Shown here one piece after another: positions 1-34,214 of a DNA stretch of 64,000 nt (position 1 is its first letter; the number at the start of each line of letters is the position of its first letter). Position numbers and translations under genes: made by a program. The notes under the pieces are model-generated. The model ran no database searches, had not been told where the DNA came from, and saw only the letters and a list, made by a program, of their open reading frames with translations. Source of the DNA: Yuukianura sp. NJ FZ-2021 (Eukaryota); NCBI GenBank assembly GCA_046563655.1, contig CM102286.1, forward strand, positions 14,136,001 to 14,200,000, read 5' to 3'.

Positions 1-1858
1 GATTAGGTTAAAAATTCACTACAGTGCATTTTCCTTTTTTATGGAAATTTAAAAAATTCCAAATTATTGATTTTTAAAAACTCCATCACACCTTCTAACT
101 TTCTACAGAAGGATTTTTGGAAAAAGTCAGGATTAGGGTAACAAATTCACTACATTGCATTTTGCTTTTTTATGGAAATTTAAAAAATCCCAAAGTATTG
201 ATTTTTAAAAACATCATCACACCTTCTAACTTTCTACAGAAGGATTTTTGGAAAAAGTCAGGATTAGGGTAACAAATTCACTACAGTGCATTTTCCTTTT
301 TTACGGAAATTTAAAAAATTCCAAAGTATTGATTTTTAAAAACACCATCACACCTTCTAACTTTCTACAGAAGGGTTTTTGGAAAAAGTCAGGATTAGGC
401 TAACAAATTCACTACAGTGCATTTTCCTTTTTTATGGAAATTTAAAAAATTCCAAAGTATTGATTTTTAAAAACACCATCACACCTTCTAACTTTCTACA
501 GAAGGGTTTTTGGAAAAAGTCAGGATTAGGGTAACAAATTCACTACAGTGCATTTTCCTTTTTTATGGAAATTTAAAAAATCCCCAAAGTACTGATTTTT
601 AAAAACACCATCACACCTTCTAACTTTCTACAGAAGGAATTTTTGGAAAATGTCAGGATTAGGTTAAAAATTCACTACAGTGCATTTTCCTTTTTTATGG
701 AAATTTAAAAAATTCCAAATTATTGATTTTTAAAAACTCCATCACACCTTCTAACTTTCTACAGAAGGATTTTTGGAAAAAGTCAGGATTAGGCTAACAA
801 ATTCACTACTGTGCATTTTCCTTTTTTATGGAAATTTAAAAAATTCCAAAGTATTGATTTTTAAAAACACCATCACACCTTCTAACTTTCTACAGAAGGA
901 TTTTTGGAAAAAGTCGGGATTAGGGTAACAAATTCACTACAGTGCATTTTCCTTTTTTATGGAAATTTAAAAAATCCCAAAGTACTGATTTTTAAAAACA
1001 CCATCACACCTTCTAACTTTCTACAGAAGGAATTTTTGGAAAATGTCAGGATTAGGTTAAAAATTCACTACAGTGCATTTTCCTTTTTTATGGAAATTTA
1101 AAAAATTCCAAATTATTGATTTTTAAAAACTCCATCACGCCTTCTAACTTTCTACAGAAGGATTTTTGGAAAAAGTCAGGATTAGGGTAACAAATTCACT
1201 ACAGTGCATTTTCCTTTTTTATGGAAATTTAAAAAATCCCAAAGTATTGATTTTTAAAAACACCATCACACCTTCTAACTTTCTACAGAAGGATTTTTGG
1301 AAAAAGTCAGGATTAGGCTAACAAATTCACTACAGTGCATTTTCCTTTTTTATGGAAATTTAAAAAATCCCAAAGTATTGATTTTTAAAATCTCCATCAC
1401 ACCTTCTAACTTTCTGCAGAAGGATTTTTGGAAAAAGTCAGGATTAGGGTAACAAATTCACTACAGTGCATTTTCCTTTTTTATGGAAACTTAAAAAATC
1501 CCAAAGTATTGATTTTTAAAAACACCATCACACCTTCTAACTTTCTACAGAAGGATTTTTGGAAAAAGTCAGGATTAGGCTAACAAATTCACTACAGTGC
1601 ATTTTCCTTTTTTATGGAAATTTAAAAAATCCCAAAGTATTGATTTTTAAAAACACCATCACACCTTCTAACTTTCTACAGAAGGATTTTTGGAAAAAGT
1701 CAGGATTAGGGTAACAAATTCACTACAGTGCATTTTCCTTTTTTACGGAAATTTAAAAAATCGCAAAGTATTGATTTTTAAAAACACCATCACACCTTCT
1801 AACTTTCTACAGAAGGATTTTTGGAAAAAGTCAGGATTAGGCTAACAAATTCACTAAA
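1..1858. repeat. Tandem satellite array, ~130-131 bp monomer, ~14 copies (truncated by window start)
   Basis: Monomer gattagg(g/c/t)taa(c/a)aaattcactacagtgcattttcc...ccttctaactttctacagaagg...gtcag recurs about every 130 nt with few substitutions. Confidence 0.97.
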
Positions 1859-1995
1859 CTGCTTTTTTGCTAAATTTTCCTTTTTTTTATAGAGACTTAA
1901 TGTTTATGAACAGATTTTATTTCAACAATTTCTAACCTAACTTGTAAAAGCGTTTTACAATAAATTAGAAAAAAATTGAAATTGTTTAAACTTAT

Positions 1996-2148
1996 TCAAG
2001 TATAGCAATGGCGTCCTGCACGAGCAGCTTTTCCATAGCCGTGGTTCTTCCCGTGCTTTCCTTCGTGCCGATTCTTTTTTCGAAGAATGTTTGCCAAAAT
2101 GGAAGCAACAGCAACGACCAAAAGCGTTTTCTTCAGGTTGAATCCCAT
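1996..2148 (-). CDS. Small secreted cationic peptide, 50 aa (MGFNLKKTLLVVAVASILANILRKKNRHEGKHGKNHGYGKAARAGRHCYT)
   Basis: Own translation, below the ORF-track cutoff. Hydrophobic signal-like N-terminus and K/R/H/G-rich tail. Candidate 5'UTR intron with acceptor near 2189 and donor near 2260. Confidence 0.6.
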   Translation of the reverse strand: MGFNLKKTLLVVAVASILANILRKKNRHEGKHGKNHGYGKAARAGRHCYT

Positions 2149-2459
2149 TGTTCAGATTTTTGAAGATTTTGGAAAAATTGCTGAAAATCTGTAACAACAA
2201 TTTTGAAATTAGTTTTAGAGAATGGAAAAATTCAAATCAGAATCAAAAAGTATTTTTTTACCTCAGAAAAAGTTGTTCATCTGAATGGCAGTTAACAATA
2301 TAATAAGATAATCCAAGGAAGTAATGTTGTGTTAAATAGGTAAAAGTATGACTAAAAATAAGACAACGCATTTATTTACCACGTCATGGCAATTAGTAAT
2401 TGAGTATAGTTAGTGATGTAATTGTGGTTAACTAACTAAAGTGTAACGATGATACATGG

Positions 2460-2681
2460 TCATTTCCACATTGGTCGCCCTGTGTAGATCCTCTGACATC
2501 GACCAATCCGCGTCGGATAGTACCCTTCTTCGCAGGTCACAGATAAAGCCGCTGCTGCTGTCCCTGGTCCACTTCCACTCCGGTTGAACACTGACCTCTC
2601 TTGACCTTCACATTGGAGTGAAACGAGGCCTTGCAATATCAACATTCCCACTATTATTTTCCACAGTAATACTGAACCCAT
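2460..2681 (-). CDS. Small secreted peptide precursor, ENF/growth-blocking-peptide-like
   Basis: ATG at 2681, signal peptide MGSVLLWKIIVGMLILQGLVSLQC, C-terminal CEEGYYPTRIGRCQRIY loop. Candidate 5'UTR intron ~2704-2775. Confidence 0.72.
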   Translation of the reverse strand: MGSVLLWKIIVGMLILQGLVSLQCEGQERSVFNRSGSGPGTAAAALSVTCEEGYYPTRIGRCQRIYTGRPMWK

Positions 2682-4296
2682 TGGACACAAACCAGCAAAA
2701 TCACTAAAAAACAAAATTTTGATTTTTGAAATGTCTATTTCAATTCAATCATTGAAAATTTTCCATTTTTTTTACCTCCAAAAAACTACACTGTTGTTGA
2801 TTAGAACTGAAATCAATTTTCAAAATTTCGATTCCTATGTTGTTGATTAGAGCTGAAATCAATTTTCAAAATTTCGAATCTTTGATAATGCTAAAACCAA
2901 ACTCGACGCAGGTTTTGAAATCGTGGGTTAAAAAAGAAACGTGCTTTAGAAATCAATCACTCCACGAGAAACTGTAAAACCTTGAAAACTTCAGAAAATT
3001 GACTTTGTGAATACGAAAGTGCTCATTCATCAAAATTTTGAGAGACATGGATGGACTCAAAACGGTTTTCTAATTTTTTTCTTTGTAAGGAAGGAAGATG
3101 CGGTATTGCGGTTTTATGTGTCCATTTCGTGTAGCATCTTTAATCAAGTTCACATTGACTCAAAAAATCAATTATTATTGCTGCGTTTTGATTTTCTTGC
3201 TGGTGGACTAGCATATTGAATGCAACGAAAAGCGAAAGGTCATCCAAGGTCAATGCCATTCACATTCACTCCGAAGCAATAAAATTTAATGTAGGTTGAT
3301 CTGGACAACGTCGATAAGATACTTCTTCCTAAAGGAAAACTTTCACTCCGTTCAGCTTCTTTTCAATACGTTTAAATTATTTGAAATTTACAACTGCAAA
3401 AGTTGCAAAATGTTATTTCGTTTTTTTTGCCAGTATCAGTTGACTAAATTTTTTGTTGTTGCATATGTGTTGAATTCAGTTGAACATTTCGTAGAAATAG
3501 AATTAAAAGGACATTATTCTTTAGACAGAAAAACTAACGATTAGATTGGATTCTAGGAAGCTTAGTTCGCAGTTTTCCAAAAACGTTTTGTTTACGCTTA
3601 TGTTTTTTGCCAATTTTATTTGCACATTGCAAATATTTTTTCCGTTCTCCTGTACAGAATGATCCAGAAGTCTTGATCGTCGACATGAAGATTGAACCAG
3701 GGAGCATATAAATCCCTGTGCCCTGCGCATGCCCTATTAACACGAAGTGGATTGAAGTGGTTCCTTCACACCTCTCGCACTTTGACATAACACATAAGTA
3801 GGGCACTTGGAGTTCCACTTTTAAGATTGAGACTGTATTCTTCTCAGTCTGTCACAAGTTATCGGCGGGAGTGGAACTCAACCAATTCAAATTAGTAATT
3901 AGAGTGACGTCAAGCTCAACGCACGTGGAGTGGATACACTATACACTCCGGCTCTAATCCATCTTACCATTAATCATTTTAGTACAACAGCGGGCTCAGG
4001 TAACATCAATTGCTTCTTAGTTCTTGCTCTAGTCCTTCCAAGGTCTAAATTAACAAAATTTTTTAAGCTATGACGTTTACAGGACGTTTATTATTAACAT
4101 ATGTTAAAGACTATTTTTTTGGAATATTGCTTTCTGGGAATGACTAAACACTTCGGAGTTTAGCATTTTTAAAAACTTGAATTCGGGAAGTTTCAAGGTC
4201 AAATTTTAATTGCATTAATTTTGGTTTGAAACAGGTCAGAAGCACGGTCAACCACAGTTCCAGCTCCTCGTTTCCTAATTGAGTTACAAGGTGACA

Positions 4297-6700
4297 ATGA
4301 ACAGCTTAGGTGACCATAATCATGAAGACGCAAGTGGGGAAATGGATACTGTCGTCGACGGATTGGCATGTGAAGAGATGTTTGCGAGCAAAGAGGGGCT
4401 GACTTACAAGTAATTGAATTCAAAAAGATTTGCAAGTATTTCGAAACTGAACTGATGATGAAGCATATTCTTTGTTTTTGCAGTGACTTCATTATTCTTC
4501 CGGGGTATATCGATTTCGAACCAAAGGAGGTGGTAAGTTTTTGTTTAATGCGTTTAACGTCGGACTGTTTCTGACTCACTGGCATACTTTTGTCCATCCA
4601 GATTATAAATGTGCTGAGTTTTGTCAACTCCGCTGTTATCTTTGTAGGAACTGGGTTGCCGACTGACCAAGGAGATTCAACTGAAGGCCCCCCTTGTCTC
4701 ATCTCCAATGGACACTGTTACTGAATCTGAGATGGCAATTGCTATGGCTCTCTGTGGTGGTATTGGAATTATCCATCACAACTGTACAACGGAGTTCCAG
4801 GCTTCAGAAGTTCTCAAGGTCAAGAAGTACAAACATGGATTCATCCGTGACCCCGTCGTGCTTTCTGCCCTTCATACAGTAAGTCTCACTCTGTATCCCT
4901 CTCACATGTACTATTCATGTTCATTAATCATAAGTTATGCGTTGGATTAACGTTTGTACTTTTTGATTCAGGTGAGAGACGTTTTTGCAGTGAAGAAGAA
5001 GTATGGATTTTGTGGAGTTCCTGTTACGGATACTGGGAAATTAGGAGGAAAATTATTAGGAATCGTTACCCAAAGAGATATTGATTTTCTGGATGGAGTC
5101 TTAGATCTAGCCCTAGAAACTGTCATGACCAAGGATCTGGTCACTGCACATGAAGAGGTTAAACTTTCTGATGCCAACAGGTAATAACTCCAATCAGCAC
5201 AGTTCCTGGAATCAATTACTTTTTCACAGATTGTTTTTCCAATTTATGGTCGATTTTCTCGGAAAAGTTTCCTAGGAACTTTTCCCCGGTAAACTGACAG
5301 TGTAAATAATTGGGGTGTATGGATTTTCCAGGATTATGGAGAAATCAAAGAAAGGAAAGCTTCCGATTGTGGATGACGAAGGACGACTCGTTGCATTGAT
5401 TGCTCGAACGGATTTGAAGAAAGCCCGGAGTTATCCCAATGCTGCCAAGGATGCTAACAAGCAACTGCTGGTTGGTGCTGCTATTGGAACTCGTGAGCAG
5501 GACAAAGAACGACTGGCAGCATTAACTGCTGCTGGAGTCGATGTCATTGTGCTTGTAAGTGCTCTACTTAATTCTGGATTACGTCAATCTTCAAGCATCC
5601 TGAAGTTGATTTATTAACTTTGATTTTTAGGATTCGTCACAAGGAAATTCCAGCTATCAGATTAACATGGTCAAGTACATCAAAGAAACTTATCCAAAAT
5701 TGCAAGTGATTGCTGGAAACGGTAAAATTTCAAAATACCTATTTCAATTTTGGCACTTTTTTTTTTTGAATTTTCTCGACTTTTTGTTCATTTTTTGAAA
5801 ATATTTGCAGTCGTAACGACTCAGCAAGCCAAAAATCTCATTGACGCTGGTGCTGATGGCCTTCGAGTGGGTATGGGCAGTGGATCGATTTGTATTACAC
5901 AGGAAGTGATGGCAGTTGGAAGGTCTCAGGTAAGCAAATAAAAAATAATATAATTAAAGTAATGAAATAATATAATAAAAATAATAAAATAATATAACTA
6001 AAACAATTTTGTTTACCATTTAGGCTACTGCTGTCTACAGAGTAGGAAAGTACGCCAGTTCCAGAGGCGTTCCAATTATTGCCGACGGAGGAGTACAAAG
6101 TGTTGGGCATATTATTAAAGCGCTTGCGCTGGGAGCTTCAACAGGTGAAAATTTAACTTATACATGACATTTTCAGAAGTTTTTTGAAAGTTTTTTTTTG
6201 ATCAGTTATGATGGGTTCGATGCTTGCTGGAACGACGGAAGCTCCTGGAGAGTACTTTTTCTCTGACGGCGTTCGACTTAAGAAGTACCGTGGAATGGGA
6301 AGCTTAGAAGCCATGGAACACAGAGATCCAATCACCAATTCCCCCTCTGCCGCCATGACACGCTACTTCCATAGTGATTCTGATCGAGCTTTGGTGGCCC
6401 AAGGGGTCAGTGGATCCATTGTGGACAAGGGCTCTGTCCGCAAGTTTCTGCCATACATCAACACTGGCATTCGTCACTCTTGCCAAGTACTCCAACACAT
6501 TTTCAAATTCAACTTTGAAGTCCAGTTTTAAAATTGAAAACATTTTTTGAAATTGTTTTTAGGACATTGGAGTTCGTAGTTTGCAGATTTTGCGAAAAGC
6601 AGTTGCTGACGGCACAGTTCGTTTTGAACGACGTACTGCATCGGCCCAAATCGAGGGTGGCGTTCACGGTCTCTACTCTTACGAGAAGCGACTCTACTAA
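4297..6700 (+). CDS. IMPDH: Inosine-5'-monophosphate dehydrogenase (10 coding exons)
   Basis: [18 protein letters not shown] region, catalytic loop [22 protein letters not shown]-terminus [14 protein letters not shown]. Exons about 4297-4409, 4484-4532, 4649-4878, 4972-5180, 5332-5554, 5631-5721, 5811-5929, 6024-6144, 6206-6486, 6562-6700. Confidence 0.97.
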
Positions 6701-7516
6701 AATATTGAATACTTGCAAATGTGCTTGCCAATGTCCTCAATCATTCTTCATTTTCAGTTTCATACACTATGTTTCTTTGCATGGAAAAACACACATTTCA
6801 TGACCAATCATGAGATTAATTATATATTTTATATAAACACTTTCAGTTCTGCAGTCTTTGGTAAAAATTTTGACATGATCTTTGATTTTGAGTAAAACCA
6901 ACTTTCAAAAAAGTTCGAAATTGCATCCATTGTTTGCACGCGAAACACGTAAAATTTTAAGGCGTCGTCACTAAAGTGCGTCAAGTCCAAAGGTTATCGT
7001 TCACATCGAAAGCTATTTACGTGTAACTAAATTTCCACCTCCTCTTAATTAAATCAACACACATGCAAGTTACTTAAAATCTTACTTAAAATTAACTTTT
7101 CACTAAAAAACTTAATTATTTGACGATGTATATTTCAGTTGCTTGAAAGCAAATAGCAGAGGAAGTGGTGCGTCGATGCAGAAAAGCGAATCGAATATTT
7201 TTTTGTACAAAAAACAACTTTGAAGAGTCAAACATAAAACAAAAGCAGAAAAGCACTTGAATTTGAGTTGAAATTTGGTAAGGTTATGAAAGGGAGAGTG
7301 ATAGGATAACCTTGGACAATAACATTAATCTTTTATCAAAAAAACATAGTCTATGTGCTTATAAGTGCAAAGTTACTCAACTTTTGTGTCTAGTAGATGT
7401 AAAAACTTGTTTGACCTTAGGAAAAAGTAGTTGACATTTGATAGATATAAGCCAGAGGGATTCTGATTATCTCATAATGTTTTCATTTAGTTTTTAGCGT
7501 AGTCTGTCTGAAAATT

Positions 7517-8853
7517 ACCGGATTAATTATCTCAAATAGTACACCTGTGTACTAATTTTGTTTTCGACTTCTGGGGGTGGTGTACTATTAGGGACCTGGT
7601 CACTATTATTATGACGGTGTACTAATTAATTTTTTAAAAATGAGGATTTTATTCTTAGCTAAAACGTTTTATCCCTGGTAATCAGGAGAAAATAATTTCT
7701 AAATTACAAAACTCATCTCCACTTCGAGGGGAACAGAATCCGTGTGTAATGTGTGACCCTAGGTCACCTCCACTTGAGTCAATTAACACTTTGATTTCAC
7801 AAGGTCATTTGTTCCGTCACCTTTGGCCGCTAGAACAAGCGTTGCGTGTGCCTTCTCATTTCTAGTCGACTTTAGTTGAACAGTTTTAGATCCAGTTGGG
7901 AGCAATTGATTGTGTTGCTCAGCATGTCGAACCACAAACTGATTTCATCCAGTTGACATATACACTTTACACACGGTTCATGCACTGTGTCCACGCTGGC
8001 GTGTCACCTGTCAAATGTAGCCAAATCTGCAACTGTCACATGTTGAAAACAATTGATCCGGGTGTCACCTTTTGTCACATACCGGGAGTCACCTGTCACC
8101 TGATAGTGAGTGTCTTTTGAGAAAACGATCCAGCCAGCCCAAACTTGCCGACGAGTCACTTCGTTCTGTTTCACGTTATCCAATGTTGGGAAAATCCTCT
8201 TCGCCTGCGTGCCACCTTGAATCGAACGCCGTGAGACTCTTAACGATTTGTTTCGTTGTTACATAATGCCAGTAAAGAGTGAATCATCCAACTCAGGTAT
8301 CAATCGTTTCCGTCCAGCGCCGATCAACCTGTCACGCCTCAGCTGATTTCACGTTTGACACTGTAAACAAAATACTGTTTCAGTATGAAATAATAATTAG
8401 GAAAAAATATTTTATTCACAATAAATTACTCACCTAAATCATTTTCCTTTCTGGGGGGGGAATCCATGTGGGGGGAACACACCGCCACTCAATGTTGTAT
8501 TCTTTAGCAGCTGCCGGGAAAGTGATTTATCCTTGGCCAATTTCACCACTTTCAATTTGAACTCCTGGTCAAATGATCTTTTTTTGTTGCGGAGACATTT
8601 TAAAGTAAGAATACGAATTTTAAGTAAAACAATTTGGAGAGAAGTAACGTGGGGAACACAACAAAGGAAGAGCTATGCTCAACTAACTTGGAGGGGGGCT
8701 ACTCCTAATGCTACATTAACAAAGACCCTGGTGTACTATTAGAGACCTGGTGTATCATTATGGGACGGTGTACTAATTAATCTCATTCTGGGGTGGTGTA
8801 CTATTAGGGACCTGGTGTACTATTTAGGTATGGTGTACTATTAGGGAAAATTA
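7517..8853 (-). mobile_element. Decayed pogo/Tigger-like (Tc1-mariner superfamily) DNA transposon
   Basis: Imperfect inverted ends (taattatctcaaatagtacacc near 7528 versus ggtgtactattagggaaaatta near 8832), subterminal ggtgtactatt repeats at both ends, and an internal transposase relic. Confidence 0.75.
7790..8345 (-). pseudogene. pogo-type transposase relic (CENP-B/Tc5 HTH plus start of DDE_1)
   Basis: Minus-strand fragments GAGRKRLIPELDDSL...RVSRRSIQ, ASLGWLDRFLKRH, LDEISLWFDMLSNT and TGSKTVQLKSTRNEKAHATLVLAAKGDGT, broken by stops and frameshifts. Confidence 0.8.
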
Positions 8854-21136: not shown

Positions 21137-23176
21137 ATGGTTAGTTCCAAATGTAATGGTAAGAGTGGCACTTTTGAAGAAATTTTGGAAGAAATTGGTA
21201 AGAAAATTACTTTCTAGGACTTACAGCGATTTTCAAAAACTTAGAAACTTTGATAAGAAATTGATTTTCTGTGTGTCTCTTTTCACAATTTTCAGGCGGA
21301 TTTGGAAAATTTCAGTTGTTGATGTTAGTGATTGTGCTTGGTTTGGAGCTTCCTGTGGCGTCTATTGGATTCATTACGGTATTCACTGGAGTATTTCCAG
21401 ACTACTGGTATTGCAATGGAGAAAAAATTCAAAAAACAAAAATTTGCGAATGCAACGGAACACTGTCAACTCCCTCTCCATTTAATTCTGTAGTTGAAGA
21501 GGTAATACACAAAGAACAAATTTTTAATTCAAATTTTGAAAAATGACATTTCGAAAAACAAATTTCAGTGGAACCTTGTATGCAGCTATGGATGGGTCTC
21601 AGATATGATAAACAGCGTTCAGATGATTGGAATGATTTTTGGCGCTCTCTGTTCTTCCCAGTTTGCTGATTGGTTGGAAAATTTTGCTTTTAAATTCCTT
21701 TTCAATTTTGAAAAGTTTGTTTAATTTTTTTTTTCAAATTTGGTGGGCATATAGGTATGGACGAAAGTATTCTACGCTCAGTTCTGCTTTGTTTCTAGGA
21801 CTCGGTTCTATATTTTCAGCAATTGCTCCGAATCCATACATTTATGCATTCGGAAGGGTTGTGTGCGGCGCAGGATTCTCTTCAGTTTTGAATCTTTCTG
21901 GAATTTATGCCATGGAGTTTTTACCAATCCGACGTCGATCGCTTTGCACATGCGCAGGACCGTACGGTTGGGCAGTCATGCTCCTAGCAATTGTTGCTTA
22001 CTATGTCAGACCATGGAGAACACTAGCTTGGATCACCACTTCACCTCTTCTCATATTCTGTCCACTTCTACTCATGTAGTTTCAAAATTTAAACAAAAAT
22101 TTGAAATTTTCATTTTTTTTGTATTTTTGAATTTATTTTTTTAGATTTGTACCAGAAAGCCCACGATTTTTGATTCGTCAAGGAAAGTTAGAAAAAGCAA
22201 CAAAAGTTTTGAATTTCATAGCGAAAATGAACGGTCGGCAAGAAATAGAGTTGTGCGTAGTTCAAAAAATTGCAGCTCAAGAACAAACCGGGGTCACAGC
22301 TTCATCTGAAGTTCGTGCTTCATATTTTGACCTCTTCCGCCAACGTGACCTCCGATCTAAAACTATTTGTCTCGCTTTCATATGGTTTTCATGGGGCCTA
22401 GTCTACTACGGACTCTACTTTAACATTAAAAACATTCCTGGGAACTTATATGTCGGCGCAATGTGCATGGGCCTGGCAGACGCCATTGGTTTCCCCTCGG
22501 CACTCCTCATAATGGACAGATTTGGACGGCGGAAGTCTGTCGTGGTTGCCATGACACTAAGTGCTGTTGTCATGGTTACGCTGGCTGGGATGCAGTTATT
22601 CCTGGATATTAACTCTATCCCAATAGTCGTCATGGTGACTTGTACTTTGGGCAAATTTTTCTTAGCAGTTGGTAGAAGTGCAGTGAAATGTTTTACTGGA
22701 GAGTCGTATCCAACTGACATCAGAAGCATAGGTAACTTTTTTAAAAAATTCCAAATTTTGAATTTTAAGAAATCGGAAATTTTAAATTTTGATTTTTAGG
22801 AATGGGAGTTTGCAGTGTTGCAATTGCATTAGGAGGAGCACTTTGTCCACAAGTCGTTTTCTGGGGCTCATGTAAGCTTGTAGTTTCTTTTTTTCGTAAA
22901 AATTACGTTTTGGTTTTCAAAAATTTTGACCAGTTTTTTGGAATTGTTGTTTTCTTTTTGACAGTCGAACCTTGTGTTCCGTTTCTGGCTTTTGCAGTTG
23001 TCGGATTAGGTGGCTCCTTCTTTTCGTTTTTCATTACAGAAACTTCTGGAAAGCCTCTGGAAGAATCCATTTCCAAAAAATTAGTCAGCGTGATAGCATC
23101 ATTAATAGTTCGAAGTTTTTACCGAGTTAAAACATCAACCAGCAACTTCAAATTAACAAGTAATTTTTTCAACTAA
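21137..23176 (+). CDS. SLC22/organic cation transporter-like MFS protein, copy 1
   Basis: GGFGKFQ, EWNLVC, D.YGRK, PESPRF, DRFGRR, ESYPTDIR, ETSGKPL motifs across GT-AG exons. Confidence 0.93.
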
Positions 23177-23583
23177 CATACATATAAACATGTTATGATT
23201 ACATCAGACAAATAAAATTTTTTAATGAAATTCAAAATTTTGTAGTGCTTTTTGATTTCTAATTTTTTAGCGTGATAACTACGTGCCTCTCGAAAGAAAT
23301 TCCTCGTGACGCAAAAGTCCGAAACGAAACTTGCTTATATGAATTAATTTTTTTTACATAAAAACTTTCCATGTCAAAGTTGAGTTTCAACTGGTTTTGA
23401 ATTTCCAAATGAATATTTTTTTGAAAAGATTAAGAAAAAAAAGTTTAAATGGAAATACAAGAGTTTATCAGTGGCATAACAAACATCCACTTAAGCGTCC
23501 TAAACGGAAATTGCTTTCTGTAATGATATTTTAAACGGAAATTTAGTCAACTCAATTCAGTCGTCTGCTTAACAACTTCCAGA

Positions 23584-26016
23584 ATGGTAAAAGATTTTGA
23601 AGACATTTTAGAAAAAACTGGTACGTCAAATTTTAAAAATGGGGAAAAAAAGATTCCAACAAACTTTAATCATTTTCCATAAAATTTTGTTGTTGTTTTT
23701 CTATTTTTAGGTGGCTTTGGGAAATTTCAGATTTTGGTATTAGTCATTGTTCTTGGTTTCGAAATTCCAGCGGCTTTTATTGGATTTATTCCAGTTTTTA
23801 CTGGAATACTTCCAGAGTACTGGATTTGTGATGGCGTCGAAATTCCAAAAACAGAAGCATGCAGTTGCAACGGTACTCTGACTGCACCTACCCCTTATAC
23901 ATCAGTTGTCGCAGAGGTAAATTTTTCAAAAAAGTTGAATACAAAAAAATTTTGACAAATTTTGACAAAATTTTTACAGTGGAACCTCGTCTGTGACTAT
24001 TCCTGGGTTTCTGATAGCTTCAACAGTGCTCAAATGATGGGGATGCTAATCGGTGTTATTTCGACTTCCCAAATTTGTGACTTGTTAGAAATATTTTTTA
24101 TTTTACTTTTCTTGAACTTTGAAAAAAAAATAGTTTTTCTTGAAATGTTAAGAAAAAGTTTAAGTGTTTAACATTAAATGTGCTGCATTTGGTGGGAATT
24201 TTTTTCAGGTATGGCAGAAAGTACACGACGTTTGGTACCGGAGTTGCTATTGGACTTGGTTCGATTCTTTCCGGCATTGCTCCGAATGCGTACGTTTAGG
24301 ATAATTTGCGGCGCAGCATTCTCCGCTCTATTAAATGTTTCCTGTATCTACTCCATGGAGTTTCTGACAGCCAATAGGAGAATGTGGTGCTCATGCGCAG
24401 GACCATACGGTTGGGCTACCATGGTCCTTGCGTTCATTGCTTACTTTGCTAGACCGTGGCGTACTTTGGTCTGGATCACAACATCACCTCTACTCATCTT
24501 TTGCCCACTTTTACTAATGTAACGCAAGCAAAAATTTTGAAAATTTCCAAAAATTGTACTTTTTTTTGCATTTTGTTTAATTTTAGGTTCATTCCAGAAA
24601 GTCCGAGATTTTTGATGCGGAAAGGCAGGCTGGAAGAGGCAACAGAAGCGATAAATTACATCGCAAGGTTCAACGGCTGTGAAGAAGTTGATGCCAAAGT
24701 GATACACCAAATCGCCGAAAAAGAGCAAGGGGAATCCAGCAACAGCGGAACAAGCTGCCTGGACTTGTTTCGACGAAGTGACTTGCTCAGGATAACACTT
24801 TGCTTTGGCACATTTTGGTTTTCATGGTCACTTGTATATTTTGGTCTTTACTTTAATATCAAAAACCTGCCTGGAGACATTTACGTCAGTGCAATGTGCT
24901 TGGGCGTGTCGGATGTTATCGGTATTCCCGCGGCAGCACTTATCATGGACAGGTTAGACTAATTCCTTCAACACCATTACGCAAACAACTCATTTGTAAA
25001 CAAAGTTTTCAAATACAGTCGAAACTCTCATTTCGCAACACGCTCTGATTGGTTGGTTTAGAAAAAATCAATGGTACCCTGAAGCTTTAAATTTGAACAC
25101 ATCTGAAATATTTTACTACAGAAAGTACCTTGTTTTGTGTTAAAATAAGTGCCTCACAGAGAATTCATAAGATTCTGTAAAATTCCTATGTTATGAGAGG
25201 CGGGGCTAAAAGTTGCACAATGAGAGGTTCGACTGTACTTTCAAAAAATGTTTAGTTTAGACTTGGTAGGTTTACCTGAATGGTTTTGACTTGTTTTGTA
25301 TTGATGGATTTCATGTTTATGTGATTCTGTGTTGATGTAATGATGTTTATGTATTAGGTGTGGCCGAAGACGATCAGTGGTGATGACGATGTCATTTGCC
25401 TCGACTGTTCTTGTTGTGCTAGCTGGACTCCAGCTAGCTTTGGATCTCCAGTCATTGCCAATTGTCATCTTGGTATTATGTACTGTTGCTAAATTCTTCT
25501 TGGCTATGGGTCGAAGTGCAGGAAAATGTTTTACAGCCGAATCGTATCCAACGGACATTCGTACTATTGGTGAGCACCGAAAAATTTGAATTATGAGAAA
25601 ACAATTTGGTAAAAAATTTTTCGAAAAAAACTCTAATTTCTTGTTTTGTTTTTATTCAAACAGGGTGTGGATTTTGTGGAATAACGTCAGGAATAGGAGG
25701 TGCCATTTGTCCACAAATTGTTTATGCTGGAACACGTTAGTTTACACTATTTTTTTTAAACATTCAAAATGTGTTCAAATTTTTCATAATTTCATTTTCA
25801 GTTCAACCTTCCGTGCCGTTTTTTGTTTTTGCTGGAATCGGAGTTGGTGGCTCCATCTTTTCTCTGTTTATCACTGAAACTTCAGGAAGGCCATTACAGG
25901 AATCAATTGCACGGAAACTGAGTCGACGCATAAGCATCATCAGCTCCAAGTTTTTACCAACGCTTAAGGAAAATCATAAGGAAAACTTGCACAGTATTGG
26001 TGAAAATCGGAGCTAG
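23584..26016 (+). pseudogene. SLC22-like transporter copy 2, frameshifted
   Basis: Full exon set, but an 11-nt deletion relative to copy 3 gives an in-frame TAG at 24297-24299. Confidence 0.75.
25016..25235. mobile_element. Tc1/mariner-pogo-type MITE, TA TSD
   Basis: ta|cagtcgaaactctcatt ... aatgagaggttcgactg|ta inverted termini. Confidence 0.88.
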
Positions 26017-26429
26017 TTTTACATTTCAAATCTACCAATGTTAGGATAGCATCAGACAAACAATTTACTGATTGAGTTTTGAAATTTTTTGTGCATCTTG
26101 ATTTCTAATGCTCTCGCATCACAGCTTCGTGTATCTCAATAAAAATTCCACGTGACTGCAAAGTTAAAAAACAAAAGTTACTGATTGAATTAATTTTTTA
26201 GCATAAATACTTTTCAGTGTCAAAATTGAGTTTTAACTGGTTTTGAATTTGAAGATGAACATTCTTTTAAAAAGATGAAGAAATAATGTTTAAATGGAGA
26301 TGCAAGAGTTTATCAGTGGCATAACTTTAAGATCCACTTAAACGTCGTCAACAGAAATTCCTTTCTTTAATAGTATTTTAAACGGAAATTTAGTCAACTC
26401 AATTCATTTGTCTACTAACATCTTTCAAA

Positions 26430-29400
26430 ATGGTGAAAGATTTTGAAGACATTTTAGAAAAAACTGGTATGTCAAATTTTAAAAATTTTGCAACAAGAGG
26501 AAGACGTCGAAGAAACTATTCTTTTTTTATATAAATTGTTTTTTTTTTTTCAAAATTTTTAGGCGGATTTGGGAAATTTCAGTTTTTGGTGTTAGTCATT
26601 GTTCTTGGTTTCGAAATTCCGGTAGCTTTTATTGGATTTATTCCAGTTTTTACTGGAATACTTCCAGAATACTGGATTTGCGATGGCATCGAAATTTCAA
26701 AAACGGAAGCATGCAGTTGCAACGGAACTCTCACCGCACCTACTCCATATACATCAGTAGTCGCAGAGGTAAATTTTTCAAAAAGACGTATACAAAAGAA
26801 ATTTTTTGAAAAATTTCAAAAAATTTTGAGAAATTTTTTACAGTGGAACCTCGTCTGTGAGTATTCTTGGGTCTCTGATGCCTTCAACAGTGCTCAAATG
26901 TTGGGAACTTTAATCGGTGTTTTGTCGACGTCTCAAGTTTCTGATTGGTTAGAAAGCTTTTATCAAAATTTTATTTTTCTCATTTTGAACCAAACAAATT
27001 TGGCTGAATTTTTTTTTTTTTTCAGGTATGGCAGAAAGTACACGACGTTTGGTTCCGGAGTGGCTATTGGACTTGGTTCGATTCTTTCCGTCATTGCACC
27101 GAATCCGTATATTTACGCTGTCGGACGCATAATTTGCGGCGCAGCAGTCTCCGCTCTATTGAATATTACCGGTATCTACTCTATGGAGTTTCTGACAGCG
27201 AAAAAGAGATTGTTGTGCGCATGTGCAGGACCGTTCGGTTGGGGTACAATGGTCCTTGCGTTCATTGCTTACTTTATCAGACCGTGGCGTACTTTGGTCT
27301 GGATCACAACATCACCTGTACTCATCTTTTGCCCACTTCTACTAATGTAACACAAGCAAAAATTTTGAAAATTTCCAAAAATTTTACTCTTTTTTTTTTT
27401 TGAATTTTTGTTTCATTTTAGGTTCATTCCAGAAAGTCCGAGATTTTTGATGCGGAAAGGCAGGCTGGAAGAGGCAACCGAAGCGATAAATTACATCGCA
27501 AGGTTCAACGGCTGTGAAGAAATTGACGCAGAAGTGATACGTCAAATAGTCGAAAAAGAGCAAGGACAATCCGGCGACAGTCGAAAAAGCTACCTGGACT
27601 TGTTTCGACGAAGTGACTTGCGCAGGAAAGCATTTTGTTTTGGTACACTTTGGTTTTCATGGTCACTTGTGTATTTTGGCCTTTACTTTAATGTCAAAAA
27701 CCTTCCTGGAGATATTTACGTCAGTGCGATATATTTGAGCGTGTCGGATGTTATTGGCTTTCCTGCGGCGTCACTCATCCTGGACAGGTTAGAATATTAT
27801 TTCAACACAGTTATGCAAACAATTCATTCGTATACAAAGCTTTCAAATACAGTCAAAACTCTCATTATGAAACACGCTCTGATTGGTTGGTTTGAAAAAA
27901 GTCACGGATACAGCGGGGACTCAAGTTTTAACACATATGAGCAGTGTTGCTGGATGGATAAAATATTTCTTCCACTCTCCTCGAAAGTGGTGGATATATC
28001 TGAATTTTATTGGTTTCTTCCGGACGAAATTCAATTTCGTCCATCGCAAACTGGATTTTATCCGGATTTATCCATTATCCAGTGGATATAATCCTAGACG
28101 AAATGCTAAAGAAGTGGAAATCCGGCAACACTGCATATGAGACAAGACAAAAAAAGTGACACCGGATAAGTTGGTATTTCAGTCAAAGTAACTTTTACTT
28201 GTACTTTGACTTTGGAAAATGAGGATATCCTCATTTTTGTCAAATCAAAGTGGTAAGTCAAAGTATAAGTTCGAGTGGAAGTTTGACTGAGAATTGAGTT
28301 TTTCACTCAAACTTGAGAACTTGCACTTTGTGTGTGGTTTCTTATGGTTGAAGTAAACTTTGACTCCACTGATGTGTTACCCACAAAATACATTGTACTA
28401 TTACATAATATTACATAATTAAAGTTAACTAATCATAAATTAGTTAAAGTTAATTAACTAATTGCAATTAATAATTAACTTTAATTAGTACGATTAACCT
28501 ATCAGATACCTACATTTACGGTGATTTCGGTTCGCTGACCACGAAAATCACTTCAAAAACGTTAAAAACCTAAACCTAATTAACTAATTACAATTAATAG
28601 TTAACTTTAATTAGTACAATTAGCACATGAGAAAAATGCATTTGGGGTAATTTTGGGTCGCCTACCACGAATATGACTTCAAAAATGCAGAGAAACGTAA
28701 ACATAATTAACTATTGCGATTAATAATTAACTTTAATTGATTAATTAAACTCAACTTCAACGTGAGTTTTGAACGAGGAGTCAGCTTACTTCAACCATTT
28801 TTTCGTTGAAGTCAAAGTAAAAGTAATGGGAAGTAACAACAGAACTTGTACTTGTACTTTGACTTTTGTCCGTCACAAAGTCAAAGTACAAGTAAAAGTT
28901 ACTTTGACTGAAATACCAACTTATCCAATGTATTAGAAATAATGTTATCAAGCAATTTCTAGAAAAGTTGGTAATTCCAAAAATCATAAACTGCGCAGTT
29001 TATGCGCAGTGCGCAGTTTGTACGCAGTGCGCAGTTTGTGCGCAGTGCGCAGGTTGTGCGCAGTTTGCGCGCAGTGCGCAGTTTGTGCGCAGTGCGCAGT
29101 TTGTGCGCAGTGCGCAGTTTGTGCGCAGTGCGCAGTTTGTGCGCAGTGCGCAGTTTGTGCGCAGTGCGCAGTTTGTGCGCAGTGCGCAGTTTGTGCGCAG
29201 TGCGCAGTTTGTGCGCAGTGCGCAGTTTGTGCGCAGTGCGCAGTTGGTGCGCAGTTTGTGCGCAGTGCGCAGTTTGTGCGCAGTGCGCAGTTTGTGCGCA
29301 GTTTGTGCGCAGTTTGTGCGCAGTTTGTGCGCAGTGCGCAGTGCGCAAAGTAAAAGTAATGGGAAGTAACAACAGAACTTGTACTTGTACTTTGACTTTT

Positions 29401-30396
29401 GTCAGTCACAAAGTCAAAGTACAAGTAAAAGTTACTTTGAAATACCAACTTATCCACCTTCCTGGTTTTGTATCATCATAAAAGACTCATCACAAAATTA
29501 GCGGTTTACGGTATTTATGTATTTTGCTTCTCCTCTCGAATTTTAGGAGAGGCGGAGCTAAGGGTTGCACAATGGGAGGTTCGGCTGTACTTTCAAAAAA
29601 TGTTTAGTTTAGACTTGTAGATTTAATTGAATAATTTTTTCTGGCTTTGTACTATTGATGAATTTCGTGTATATCTAATTTTGTGCTGATGTAATGATGT
29701 TTATGTATTAGGTTTGGCCGAAGACGGTCAGTGGTGATGACGATGTCACTTGGTTCGGCTGTCCTTGTTGTGCTAGCTGGACTCCAGCTAGCTCTGGATC
29801 TCCAATCACTGCCAATTGTCATTTTGGTGTTGTGTACTGTTGGTAAGTTCTTCTTGGCTATGGGTCGCAGTGCATCAAAATGTTTTACAGCCGAGTCGTA
29901 TCCAACGGACATCCGTACCATTGGTGAGCGTTGAAAAATTTGGATTATGTTTATGTAACAAATTGTTTCTGTTTTTTGGGAAAATATAATTTTTGGAAGA
30001 ATTCCAACTTTTCTTCTGATATTTATTCCAAAAGGATGTGGATTTTGTGGAGTAACTTCAGGAATTGGAGGTGCTATTTGTCCACAAGTTGTTTACGCAG
30101 GAACAAGTTCGTTTTACACAAAAATCTTATATTTTGTTTTGAAACATTGAAAAAGTATACAAAAAAAAATTTGTTTTCCAGTGCAACCTGCTGTGCCTTT
30201 TTTTGTTTTTGCTGGAATCGGTGTGAGTGGCTCCATCTTTTCTTTGTTTATCACCGAAACTTCAGGAAAGCCATTACAGGAATCAATTGCACGGAAACTG
30301 AGTCGACGCATAAGCATCATCAGCTCCAAGTTTTTACCAACGCTTAAGGAAAATCACAAGGAAAACGTGCACAGTATTGGCGAAAATCGGACCTAA
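26430..30396 (+). CDS. SLC22-like transporter copy 3
   Basis: Intact exon set, very similar to copy 2, with one intron (27788-29711) expanded to ~1.9 kb. Confidence 0.92.
27942..28133. mobile_element. hAT-like MITE
   Basis: TIR cagtgttgc(t/c)ggat and perfect 8-bp TSD catatgag (27934-27941, 28134-28141). Confidence 0.9.
28165..28926. mobile_element. MITE with ~50-bp TIRs (ggataagttggtatttcagtc...); right end repeated at ~29346-29456
   Basis: 28165-28214 is the reverse complement of ~28876-28926. Internal ~140-bp direct repeats at ~28430-28740. Confidence 0.85.
28985..29347. repeat. 18-bp minisatellite (gtgcgcagtttgtgcgca)n built from TGCGCA palindromes
   Basis: About 19-20 units, opened by the perfect 20-bp palindrome cataaactgcgcagtttatg. 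Confidence 0.97.
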
Positions 30397-31298
30397 AGTT
30401 TCCAATTGCGAATTTGCCATTCAGAATTTTCATTTCTAAGAATGAATAGTTAATTTTTTTCAGAATGCTTCTTAACATTCGTACAATCTTTGAATAAACA
30501 ATTTTAACACGTTCGAATAAATTAGGAATCTTCACATTACAACTTTTTCCGAACTTGGAATTTTGATTTTATTTTAATTCACGTATTTACTGTTCCACGC
30601 TTCGAACATTTTTGTCACACAGAAGCCCAATGACCTTCGATTTGACACTTTTTAAATTTGGAAAGGTTTGCGCCTAAATTGGAATCTTCTGGCACAAATT
30701 GCACTTGGAGTATTAAATGCACGAGATTTTTATGAAATTTTGTGACATATTTCTAAAAGTGTCAAAGGTCATGACTGTTCCTATGCTAATCTTAATGGTC
30801 AATTTAATCCTTGTGTATGCAAAACCAAAACCAAAACCGCATCTTAAAACTTGAACTTCAAATGACATCGTGAGCGAGAGGCTTTTGCTAAATATTTTGC
30901 AAGTATGTAAGATTTGGCATTACATACGTCTGTGGTAGTCATGTGTTTGAAGTTAATACAAATTTTGTAAAGACCAATCGAAAATTTCTTAGCTCCGAAT
31001 TAATTTTTCGCTGAAAAACGCTTTTTTTTGTGTCTTACCTTCTGACTTTAGCGTGTTGATTTTCGACAGAATTTGCTAAGAAATATGCTAAACACAAATT
31101 TTAAGTGGAAAGTGTGTGCATATGAATCAATCAGATCATGAAATTCAAGAATTTCTTCAGATTTTTTCTCCTGCTAAATCACTTACAACACCGAATCCAT
31201 CAGAAATTGTTTAGTTATTTGTTAAGTTAAAGAAATTTAGCAAAGTTTCAACAATAGCCTAACTTTTTCAACAAATACATCAAAATTTAAAAAAAAAA

Positions 31299-33554: not shown

Positions 33555-34214
33555 TAACGATTCCGGATTTGAAAAATTGTAATTTAAAATTTCAAAATGC
33601 GGACTCCCTTCAGACACTCCGAATTCAATGTCCCTATTTCAAAAATTAATGTTTCGTCGTGAACGTGATTATGACTCAGAAATGTTCATGTGACTAGTAA
33701 ACAATAGCATTTTGATTTGTGCACTTATAAACACTAACTTTATTATATAGTAAGTAGTACTTTATGATTAAGTAAGCGTACAACATTGACACACTTTGTG
33801 TCGTCGTCATAGGCGTAAAACGACGAAGGTCAATTACTCTATAAACGTGAAAAGAATCAATTTAGCAGATCAAATACACAAAAAGTACCAAACACATTTT
33901 TAGTAAGTTTGCACAAAGCCATGGGAAAGAGCATGAGCAAAGATTCGGAGCAGTTGGATACGGGAGATAAGAAAAAGAGCCACTTGAGTTCTGGGAAGTT
34001 GTTAAATTTTGCATAAATTTCGCAACTTTAGATCTCACATGTTCATTTTCAATTTCGCAACTAACTAATCTACTACGTAAGACCAGCTGCTAAAAACGTG
34101 TGCTACTTGTGTAACAAAGAAAACTTTTACTTTTTTTAGGTGTTTAGCAGCCAAGCTGAATTTTTTTTTGATTTTTGAATTTTAGCGCCTTCAACTCCTG
34201 CAACGAGAACGACC

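What the first reader, a model, noticed from the sequence alone, without database searches (positions are those of the whole stretch)
2460..2681. ENF/growth-blocking-peptide-like cytokine precursor in a probable non-insect hexapod
Seen: signal peptide, short spacer, then CEEGYYPTRIGRCQRIY. Known: lepidopteran ENF peptides have C-x-x-G-Y-x-x-T-x-x-G-R-C-K near the precursor C-terminus, and the wider insect family follows C-x2-G-x4-6-G-x1-2-C-[KR]. Spacing and the GY, T and GRC residues match exactly; the residue after the second Cys is Q then R. Inference: a stress/immune cytokine, possibly processed after the Arg in FNR-SGS.
Basis: partly seen in the sequence, partly recalled or inferred. Interest (0 to 1): 0.72.

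Follow-up and report, generated by a model that had tools for sequence, protein, structure and literature searches.

The report
Springtail GBP-like secreted peptide precursor
This is a real, conserved small gene, probably from a springtail, for a secreted peptide built like the insect stress cytokine growth-blocking peptide; it misses several of that family's published rules, so it is a plausible but unproven sign that the family is older than insects.

Summary
The 73-codon ORF (2460-2681, minus) is a real gene. Two full-length relatives exist (44-47% identical); one lies at the orthologous locus, with saturated synonymous and low non-synonymous change (pS 0.83, pN 0.17). All three have a hydrophobic N-terminus, an invariant Asn-Arg, then exactly 39 residues with one two-cysteine loop. 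That is GBP/uENF precursor architecture. Membership is not shown: all three have Gln where the published motif needs Lys/Arg, the Arg lies 16 rather than 7-9 residues before the cysteine, Pfam GBP_PSP does not score, and the predicted hairpin matches ENF peptides, EGF loops and IMPI equally weakly. EGF-type repeats in this genome fit the ENF motif better. However, the genome holds three more short signal-peptide ORFs ending in such a loop, one meeting the published motif. Best reading (0.5): a protease-released haemolymph ligand that works like GBP, from a springtail branch of this peptide type. Immune function, cleavage, receptor and expression are inferred only. A second conserved 50-codon gene follows it.

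The parts
2460..2681 (-). ORF1: single coding exon, 73-aa pre-pro-peptide (P0001)
   Evidence: relatives P0004 and P0006; purifying selection against L006; single copy in G000 by protein search
2604..2681 (-). Probable signal peptide, residues 1 to about 24-26 (removes the third, unconserved Cys24 if cut there)
   Evidence: hydropathy in 3 of 3 relatives; (-3,-1) candidates; inference, no dedicated predictor
2580..2585 (-). Invariant Asn33-Arg34, candidate monobasic processing site
   Evidence: invariant in 3 of 3, always 39 residues from the C-terminus and 16 from the first loop Cys; cleavage itself inferred
2463..2579 (-). Predicted 39-aa mature peptide: Gly/Ser-rich flexible arm, then conserved core, net charge +3
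   Evidence: gap-free alignment A3, 19 of 39 columns invariant; pLDDT 45 for residues 1-10 and 73-80 for 11-30
2496..2534 (-). Cys50-Cys62 loop (C-x2-G-x6-G-x-C), predicted two-strand hairpin; Gln follows the second Cys
   Evidence: weak Foldseek matches to ENF peptides, IMPI and EGF loops
2704..2775 (-). Candidate 72-nt 5' UTR intron of ORF1 (GT...AG with T-rich acceptor)
   Evidence: read from the sequence; no RNA evidence
2362..2426 (-). Conserved non-coding block between the two ORFs, holding AATAAA at 2376-2371: 3' UTR and poly(A) signal of ORF1 and/or promoter of ORF2
   Evidence: local alignment to L006 scored 43; 0 of 1000 shuffles reached it
2189..2261 (-). Candidate 5' UTR intron of ORF2 (L006 has a GT...AG stretch at the same place, 1369-1432)
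   Evidence: read from the sequences; no RNA evidence
1996..2148 (-). ORF2: conserved 50-aa basic peptide with a hydrophobic N-terminal stretch (P0002); not GBP-like, function unassigned
   Evidence: 22 of the first 27 residues identical to L006:1468-1596, pS 0.82, pN 0.12

Best explanation
ORF1 encodes a secreted pre-pro-peptide ligand that works like insect growth-blocking peptide (GBP/ENF/uENF type), in a probable springtail. Proposed mechanism: (1) the signal peptide is removed near residue 24-26 and a 47-49-residue propeptide is secreted into haemolymph (inferred from hydropathy); (2) Cys50 and Cys62 form one disulfide that closes a short beta-hairpin (predicted, medium confidence); (3) a trypsin-like serine protease, activated by wounding or other stress, cuts after the invariant Arg34 and frees a cationic 39-residue peptide (inferred from conservation and by analogy with proGBP); (4) the conserved core, Leu46 to Tyr66 plus the terminal Trp-Lys, binds a host cell-surface receptor, most likely a Methuselah-like GPCR as for fly GBP, and changes haemocyte behaviour or growth (inferred by analogy only). 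Shown here: a real gene under purifying selection, the precursor architecture, the fixed Arg-to-end register, and two paralog-like precursors in the genome. It is not filed as a GBP family member because four published features fail.
For: Two full-length relatives at E 1.6e-10 and 5.4e-7 among 1.84 billion proteins; one at the orthologous locus with shared neighbours. pS 0.83 against pN 0.17 over the last 29 codons, Fisher p 3e-8. Conservation is concentrated at the C-terminus, as reported for uENF1/uENF2/PP (PMC2978622) and as expected of a ligand for a conserved receptor (inference). Two Cys and two Gly are invariant. Against silkworm PP as printed in PMC2978622, 6 of 17 positions from the first Cys are identical and 2 more are aromatic in both (by eye); the aromatic residue four after the second Cys is shared with PP, uENF1 and uENF2. 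Of 10 genome-wide matches to the ENF-type loop pattern, this is the only stand-alone loop at the end of a short hydrophobic-start ORF; the 5 matches in Cys-rich repeat proteins all carry an extra Cys two residues upstream, where these peptides have an invariant Val. Three more short signal-peptide ORFs end in such a loop; one meets the published motif. ENF structures 1b1v, 2eqq and 2djc appear among the Foldseek rows.
Against: Gln, not Lys/Arg, follows the second Cys in 3 of 3. Arg is 16 residues before the Cys, against 7-9 (PMC3251627). The predicted 39-mer is longer than the 19-25 residues given for the family (PMC6439351), and the precursors (73-86 aa) are below the 100-200 aa criterion. 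No Pfam GBP_PSP match for any of the three; in G000 the profile's 4 weak hits did not include this locus and the best was an EGF-type repeat loop, which matches silkworm PP at 9 of 13 loop positions against 6 of 13 here (by eye). No ENF sequence was hit in PDB at E<=10 by the protein or either profile. All Foldseek rows are non-significant, and IMPI or thrombomodulin rank above the ENF peptides; VIA-align gave no Z>=2. The residues freed by a cut at Arg34 are variable and low in complexity, unlike a conserved activating N-terminus (inference). No Methuselah ectodomain was found in G000, a weak negative because that domain is nearly insect-specific (PMC4768249).
Confidence: 0.5

Rival explanations
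1. A conserved springtail peptide hormone or developmental ligand that is not a stress or immune cytokine and need not share ancestry with GBP. It arose by freeing the last loop of an EGF-like or DUF4789-like protein. [FI]-N-R may be part of the active peptide (signal removal alone gives about 47 residues), held at a fixed distance from the hairpin to contact a receptor.
For: The same loop ends Cys-rich repeats and a DUF4789-like protein in this genome. The fold match is generic. The Gly/Ser arm keeps its exact length in 3 of 3 although its letters vary, which suits a spacer between two functional ends as well as a cut site. 15-19 of 21 core residues are shared among orthologs whose synonymous sites are saturated, hormone-like conservation.
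Against: Lepidopteran GBPs are also over 70% identical and themselves act in growth and embryogenesis (PMC6439351), so conservation does not separate the readings. A precursor that meets the published GBP motif sits in the same genome (P0017), which makes the presence of the family in this lineage more likely.
Confidence: 0.3
2. A secreted effector rather than a signal: a small disulfide-hairpin protease inhibitor or a cationic antimicrobial peptide, perhaps co-regulated with the basic ORF2 peptide.
For: The top Foldseek rows for the mature model are the 30-residue chain of insect metalloproteinase inhibitor (E 1.8 and 2.9). The predicted peptide is cationic (+3 to +6) and has an exposed Thr-Arg-Ile in the turn. 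The neighbour encodes a +10 peptide.
Against: The IMPI match is non-significant and covers one hairpin of a multi-disulfide domain (domain architecture recalled). The gene is single-copy by protein search with an almost invariant core, unlike the fast-evolving multi-copy pattern usual for such effectors (general knowledge). No Pfam inhibitor or antimicrobial family matched.
Confidence: 0.15
3. A chance ORF; the motif is a coincidence in non-coding DNA upstream of the IMPDH gene.
For: The loose loop pattern occurs 0.37 times per shuffled 62 kb; no RNA run was available.
Against: Full-length relatives, an orthologous locus, third-position-biased change (25, 23 and 11 of 29 identical at codon positions 1, 2, 3), and listed alleles that are silent or conservative.
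Confidence: 0.02

Closest known systems
Moth uENF1 and uENF2 cytokine precursor-like proteins (PMC2978622)
   Same: Short precursors (105 and 89 aa) with a signal peptide and a C-terminal loop with two conserved Cys and two conserved Gly; conservation highest at the C-terminus; aromatic residue four after the second Cys.
   Different: Their second Cys is followed by Arg, they have an I-x-V-P site before the loop, and they share a tricistronic mRNA with PP. Here Gln follows, the conserved basic site is Asn-Arg 16 residues upstream, and the neighbouring ORF is not a loop peptide. P0017 elsewhere in this genome is closer to the uENF pattern.
Lepidopteran ENF peptides: GBP, paralytic peptide, PSP (Pfam PF02425; PDB 2eqq, 1b1v, 2djc)
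   Same: Loop spacing C-x2-G-x6-G-x-C with G-[FY], Thr and G-R-C; model overlays 17 residues of 2eqq at 1.0 A, 41% identity.
   Different: No E-N-F start, Ile for the loop Asp, Gln for Lys, predicted product 39 against 23-25 residues, no Pfam score, structural match non-significant.
Drosophila GBP1 (CG15917) and non-lepidopteran GBP-like peptides (PMC3251627, PMC6439351)
   Same: Pre-pro-peptide with the loop at the C-terminus and an upstream Arg; several related genes per genome; too diverged for ordinary sequence search.
   Different: Precursor 73-86 against 100-200 aa; Arg 16 against 7-9 residues from the Cys; [KR] missing; receptor Mthl10 has no demonstrated counterpart here.
Last disulfide loop of EGF-like and TIL/IMPI modules, and C-terminal loop of DUF4789-like proteins
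   Same: Same hairpin geometry and same C-x2-G-x6-G-x-C pattern in this genome.
   Different: There the loop is part of a multi-cysteine domain, usually with Cys two residues upstream; here it stands alone behind a signal peptide and a Gly/Ser arm.

Membership tests
GBP/ENF insect cytokines | Consensus C-x(2)-G-x(4,6)-G-x(1,2)-C-[KR] (PMC6439351) | tested here: not met
   Core matched, last position is Gln in 3 of 3 proteins
GBP/ENF insect cytokines | Two Cys and two Gly conserved in a C-terminal loop of a precursor (PMC2978622) | tested here: met
   C50, G53, G60, C62 invariant, 11 residues from the stop
GBP/ENF insect cytokines | N-terminal signal peptide (uENF1, uENF2; pre-pro-peptide) | tested here: met
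   By hydropathy and the (-3,-1) rule only, 3 of 3; no dedicated predictor
GBP/ENF insect cytokines | Arg 7-9 residues before the first Cys (PMC3251627) | tested here: not met
   Nearest Arg is 16 residues upstream in 3 of 3
GBP/ENF insect cytokines | Precursor of 100-200 aa (PMC3251627 selection rule; uENF2 is 89 aa) | tested here: not met
   73, 86 and 79 aa
GBP/ENF insect cytokines | Mature peptide of 19-25 residues (PMC6439351) | tested here: inconclusive
   39 residues if cut after Arg34; the real cut site is unknown
ENF peptides in the strict sense | N-terminal Glu-Asn-Phe and Pfam PF02425 score | tested here: not met
   No such start; no PF02425 match at E<=10; locus not among 4 weak hits in G000
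GBP/ENF insect cytokines | Disulfide-closed EGF-like beta-hairpin core | tested here: inconclusive
   Hairpin predicted at pLDDT 73-80; ENF structures among Foldseek rows at E 3.2-7.4, below or beside IMPI and EGF rows; no Z>=2
GBP/ENF insect cytokines | Fat-body expression, stress-triggered cleavage in haemolymph, haemocyte or growth activity, Mthl-type receptor | not testable with these tools
   No RNA holder listed; no assay possible
EGF-like / TIL domain proteins | Loop embedded in a domain of three or more disulfides, Cys two residues before the loop | tested here: not met
   Only two Cys after the signal region; Val at that place in 3 of 3; no Pfam match
uENF1-uENF2-PP polycistronic arrangement | Several loop-peptide ORFs on one mRNA read by leaky scanning | tested here: not met
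   ORF2 has no loop; 9 ATGs (8 in L006) and a conserved AATAAA lie between the two starts; transcript structure itself not testable

The most novel reading that the evidence does not exclude
The GBP/uENF cytokine system predates insects. Springtails keep their own multi-gene branch: a conserved C-Q type with a longer 39-residue product (this gene and two paralog-like genes) beside a canonical C-R type (P0017). The same genome also holds the likely source, EGF-type repeats and DUF4789-like proteins ending in the same loop, so the family's birth by freeing a single EGF-type loop could be traced in early hexapods.
Probability: 0.35. Interest if true: 0.72.

Novelty: new variant of a known kind. 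Interest (0 to 1): 0.52.

Why it matters
GBP is described from six insect orders and its origin is open (PMC6439351). If this peptide works like GBP, stress-released hairpin cytokines go back at least to the split of springtails and insects, the published motif is too narrow (Gln allowed, longer arm), and Folsomia or Orchesella, standard soil-toxicology animals, would gain a candidate stress hormone that can be synthesised and tested directly. If it is not a GBP, it is still an unnamed, strongly conserved secreted peptide that matched no Pfam family, in a group whose peptide signals are little studied.

Tried and rejected
Word-index protein search with the single protein found nothing and with alignment A1 only the two known relatives among 43 candidates. 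Four long proteins (P0003, P0005, P0007, P0008) were dropped: they match the spacer region (query 19-61 at widest); three were read and are repeat proteins without the loop; P0003 was not read. Three of 4 metagenome loci (L007-L009) match only residues 47-66; L007 lies among bacterial-looking ORFs in a frame with no matching N-terminus and was taken as chance; L008 and L009 were not opened. No RNA holder listed. ESM Atlas: no usable hit for P0001; for P0004 the three shown of 30 hits were unnamed arthropod clusters at 0.76-0.77, below the level that counts. PDB sequence searches gave only chance rows. FOG_N rang nowhere, controls included, so it is uninformative. Methuselah_N gave no match. 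The C-Q-[RK]-I-[FY] pattern gave 8 hits against 7 in the control, only this gene and L038 with a full loop. The five-residue spacer pattern gave 8 hits, none a stand-alone signal-peptide ORF. Rfam over 1800-4400 gave one sub-threshold row, E 0.89. The sigma-70 promoter scan does not apply to an animal and was ignored. A leaky-scanning dicistron of ORF1 and ORF2 was considered and judged unlikely. N-glycosylation as the reason for the conserved Asn was rejected: only this copy has N-x-S. One paper search on mutant names returned unrelated papers. Earlier findings by place, sequence and words showed nothing for this locus. No complex prediction was run, as no receptor candidate was identified.

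Full report
Observation. The minus-strand ORF at 2460-2681 encodes 73 residues with the loop CEEGYYPTRIGRC at residues 50-62, followed by QRIY and ending 11 residues later. The first 22-26 residues look like a signal peptide by hydropathy (19-residue mean 2.15) and the (-3,-1) rule; no dedicated predictor was available. A GT...AG stretch at 2775-2704 would be a 5' UTR intron. The gene lies head to head with an IMPDH gene and is single-copy in G000 by protein search. The loose loop pattern is weak by itself (0.37 per shuffled 62 kb); a tighter ENF-type pattern occurred in 0 of 30 shuffles.

It is a real gene. phmmer over 1.84 billion representatives gave 6 hits at E<=0.001, of which 2 are short full-length relatives, P0004 (86 aa) and P0006 (79 aa), 47% and 44% identical in the alignment. 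Neither carries a name. P0004 is encoded on L006, which is the orthologous locus: it holds ORF1, the next small ORF, and then sequence matching L010:7904-6023, the genes just beyond a 131-bp satellite array that L006 lacks. Against L006 the last 29 codons give pS 0.83 and pN 0.17 (Fisher p 3e-8), with 25, 23 and 11 of 29 identities at codon positions 1, 2, 3. Contigs of 4 DNA runs (at most 2 samples, 2 studies) show 7 listed differences in the ORF, which read as 3 silent changes plus I9V, L16V and R64K; 144 further differences and 51 indel rows over the 3.6 kb were not shown, so this list may be incomplete.

Anatomy. In 3 of 3 proteins a hydrophobic N-terminus of variable length is followed by invariant Asn-Arg and then exactly 39 residues without gaps: a Gly/Ser-rich arm of about 10 residues, A-L-x-V-x-C, the loop, C-Q-[RK]-I-Y and a terminal W-K. 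Only two Cys remain after the signal region. AlphaFold2 on three-row alignments gives an N-terminal helix, a disordered arm and a two-strand hairpin inside the loop (mean pLDDT 62.8 and 65.4; 73-80 over the core).

Host. The COX20 gene of the window has 6 relatives at E<=1e-10 among 27 candidates; the only one with an organism name is Orchesella cincta, 47% identical. That supports a springtail but rests on one named hit from a word-limited search. Earlier scan notes on this genome say the same (unchecked AI notes). The organisms behind P0004 and P0006 are unknown; shared gene order makes a related animal likely for L006 (inference).

How well does it fit GBP? For: the architecture is that of GBP/uENF precursors; the two Cys and two Gly that PMC2978622 reports as perfectly conserved are invariant; against silkworm PP as printed there 6 of 17 positions are identical and 2 more aromatic (by eye); three ENF structures appear among the Foldseek rows (1b1v rank 3, 2eqq rank 19, 2djc rank 49 for the mature model; 2eqq rank 6 for the full model, 17 columns, 1.0 A). 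Against: the review's consensus ends in [KR] and all three have Gln; the Arg is 16 residues before the Cys, not 7-9; the precursors are under 100 aa; the predicted product is 39 residues, not 19-25. Pfam gave no GBP_PSP match, PDB sequence searches hit no ENF peptide, no Foldseek row reached E<=0.001, IMPI and thrombomodulin ranked above the ENF peptides, and VIA-align found no Z>=2 among 48,161 chains.

The motif is not diagnostic, the context is. PF02425 over G000 gave 4 sub-threshold hits, not this locus; the two best are loops inside Cys-rich repeat proteins, and the best matches PP at 9 of 13 loop positions against 6 of 13 here (by eye). An ENF-type DNA pattern found 10 places (control 2): 5 in Cys-rich repeat proteins, all with Cys two residues upstream; 3 with stops; 1 in a 46-codon frame without a leader; and this gene, the only stand-alone loop behind a hydrophobic leader.

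A small group in the genome. Two related patterns gave 19 rows. Three are stand-alone loops at the end of short signal-peptide ORFs: P0016 (L037, 74 aa), a two-exon gene at L038 (P0019 plus P0018, with an R-Q-K-R site and an ending C-Q-R-I-F...W-K like this gene's) and P0017 (L034, 109 aa), which meets the published motif and has I-x-x-V-P and a dibasic site before the loop. One more, L025, is a Cys-rich protein that resembles DUF4789 proteins by eye and ends in a motif-positive loop; Pfam did not name it or the three precursors. hhalign of A1 gave probabilities 93.5 for P0018, 93.7 for P0016 and 1.7 for P0017. An HMM of the mature region ranked L038 (18.9 bits) and L037 (16.2) first among non-self frames of 6,685, but a junk frame scored 15.5. 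These targets were chosen by motif, so the scores are inflated; their signal peptides and terminal position are the independent support. Their conservation in other species was not tested, and the pattern scans are not an exhaustive census.

The second gene. ORF2 (1996-2148, minus) is also under purifying selection (22 of the first 27 residues identical to P0009; pS 0.82, pN 0.12). It has a hydrophobic stretch and a basic tail, no loop, and no meaningful Pfam match. A 65-nt non-coding block between the genes is conserved (0 of 1000 shuffles) and holds AATAAA. With 9 ATGs between the two starts (8 in L006), a leaky-scanning dicistron like the moth uENF mRNA is unlikely; two compact genes fit better. 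RNA is needed to settle it.

Mechanism. Most likely (0.5) the product is secreted, closed by one disulfide, cut after Arg34 by a stress-activated serine protease as proGBP is (PMC3251627), and acts on a host receptor, by analogy a Methuselah-like GPCR (fly GBP acts through Mthl10, PMC6439351). Gene reality, selection, architecture and register are shown; secretion, disulfide, cleavage, receptor and immune role are inferred. No Methuselah ectodomain was found in G000, but that domain is almost confined to insects and the oldest Mthl receptors lack it (PMC4768249). The main rival (0.3) is a conserved hormone or developmental ligand that reached the same hairpin independently, possibly with Asn-Arg kept in the active peptide. 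An effector role, inhibitor or antimicrobial, is less likely (0.15).

Novelty and literature. The review lists GBP from six insect orders. In the held library 'growth-blocking peptide' with 'collembola' gave 1 paper, with both terms only in its reference list; none of the 25 listed of 2,977 papers in a wider search held the GBP term; a survey of springtail antimicrobial genes does not use the words cytokine or GBP. Much GBP work is in journals the library lacks, so absence from print is not established. What I saw: PMC6439351, parts 1-2 of 4 (main text to the conclusions, no figures); PMC3251627, passages and section 5; PMC2978622, part 1 of 7, passages and section 21; PMC4768249, PMC6709652 and PMC13449613, passages; PMC10051947, term counts only. 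Matsumoto 2012 and Duressa 2015 were not seen and are cited through the review. No supplements or alignment figures were opened; those of PMC3251627 and the review's Figure 2 could show accepted GBP members with other residues after the second Cys or other Arg spacing, which would soften the failed tests.

Verdict. Observation confirmed; interpretation partly supported. A real, conserved, unnamed secreted-peptide gene that is built and probably works like a GBP/uENF precursor, in a probable springtail, but not a demonstrated family member. New variant of a known kind; interest 0.52.

Noticed in passing
window 1996-2148 (-); L006:1468-1596: Conserved 50-aa basic peptide gene right behind ORF1. 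Its hydrophobic N-terminal 27 residues are the conserved part and the basic tail varies, which suits a small membrane or amphipathic peptide better than a cleaved signal peptide.
   Followed up: partly
window 2362-2426 (-); L006 about 1182-1235: Conserved non-coding block with AATAAA, TTACATCA and CATGACG. The latter two resemble bZIP (ATF4-C/EBP and CRE/XBP1-type) sites (recalled, untested), so the block may double as a stress-responsive promoter of ORF2.
   Followed up: partly
L034:1419-1748 (-), G000:C2 near 5017363: 109-aa signal-peptide ORF (P0017) that meets the published GBP consensus with C-R, has I-x-x-V-P before the loop like moth uENFs and a dibasic site 13-14 residues upstream: the most canonical GBP/uENF candidate seen in this genome.
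   Followed up: partly
L038:1172-1572 (+), G000:C5 near 5234693; L037:1336-1560 (+), G000:C5 near 2895598: Two paralog-like precursors: a two-exon gene with signal peptide, R-Q-K-R site and an ending C-Q-R-I-F...W-K, and a 74-aa single-exon gene with C-H after the loop.
   Followed up: partly
L025 (-), G000:C1 near 7036258; window 51427-51957 (-): A Cys-rich protein resembling DUF4789 proteins by eye ends in a uENF2-like loop with C-R; the window holds a weak DUF4789 match (E 0.0053). DUF4789-like tails may be related to GBP-type loops.
   Followed up: partly
L002, L015 (G000:C1 634-637 kb), L017, L018, L022: Large Cys-rich repeat proteins whose last loops resemble ENF peptides; the L002 loop matches silkworm paralytic peptide at 9 of 13 positions.
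   Followed up: partly
window 1-1867 and L010:8239-10000: A 131-bp satellite array of about 3.6 kb (28 copies, 93-95% alike) sits between ORF2 and the next conserved gene and is absent from the orthologous locus L006.
   Followed up: partly
L010:4362-6416 and 7111-7908 (+); L006:2032-3728: Conserved neighbouring coding sequence, including a 684-codon Ser/Pro-rich open frame; three L006 fragments gave no meaningful Pfam match.
   Followed up: partly
window about 4322-6550 (+): Intron-rich IMPDH gene, head to head with ORF1 across about 1.6 kb; not present in the DNA held for L006.
   Followed up: no
window about 21200-33600 (+): Tandem cluster of about five similar sugar/organic-ion transporter genes (PF00083), with an 18-bp tandem repeat at 28992-29324 inside it.
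   Followed up: no
window 57769-59136 (+): 455-codon frame ending in His/Pro/Ala-rich 9-residue repeats (27-bp tandem repeat at 58830-59045).
   Followed up: no
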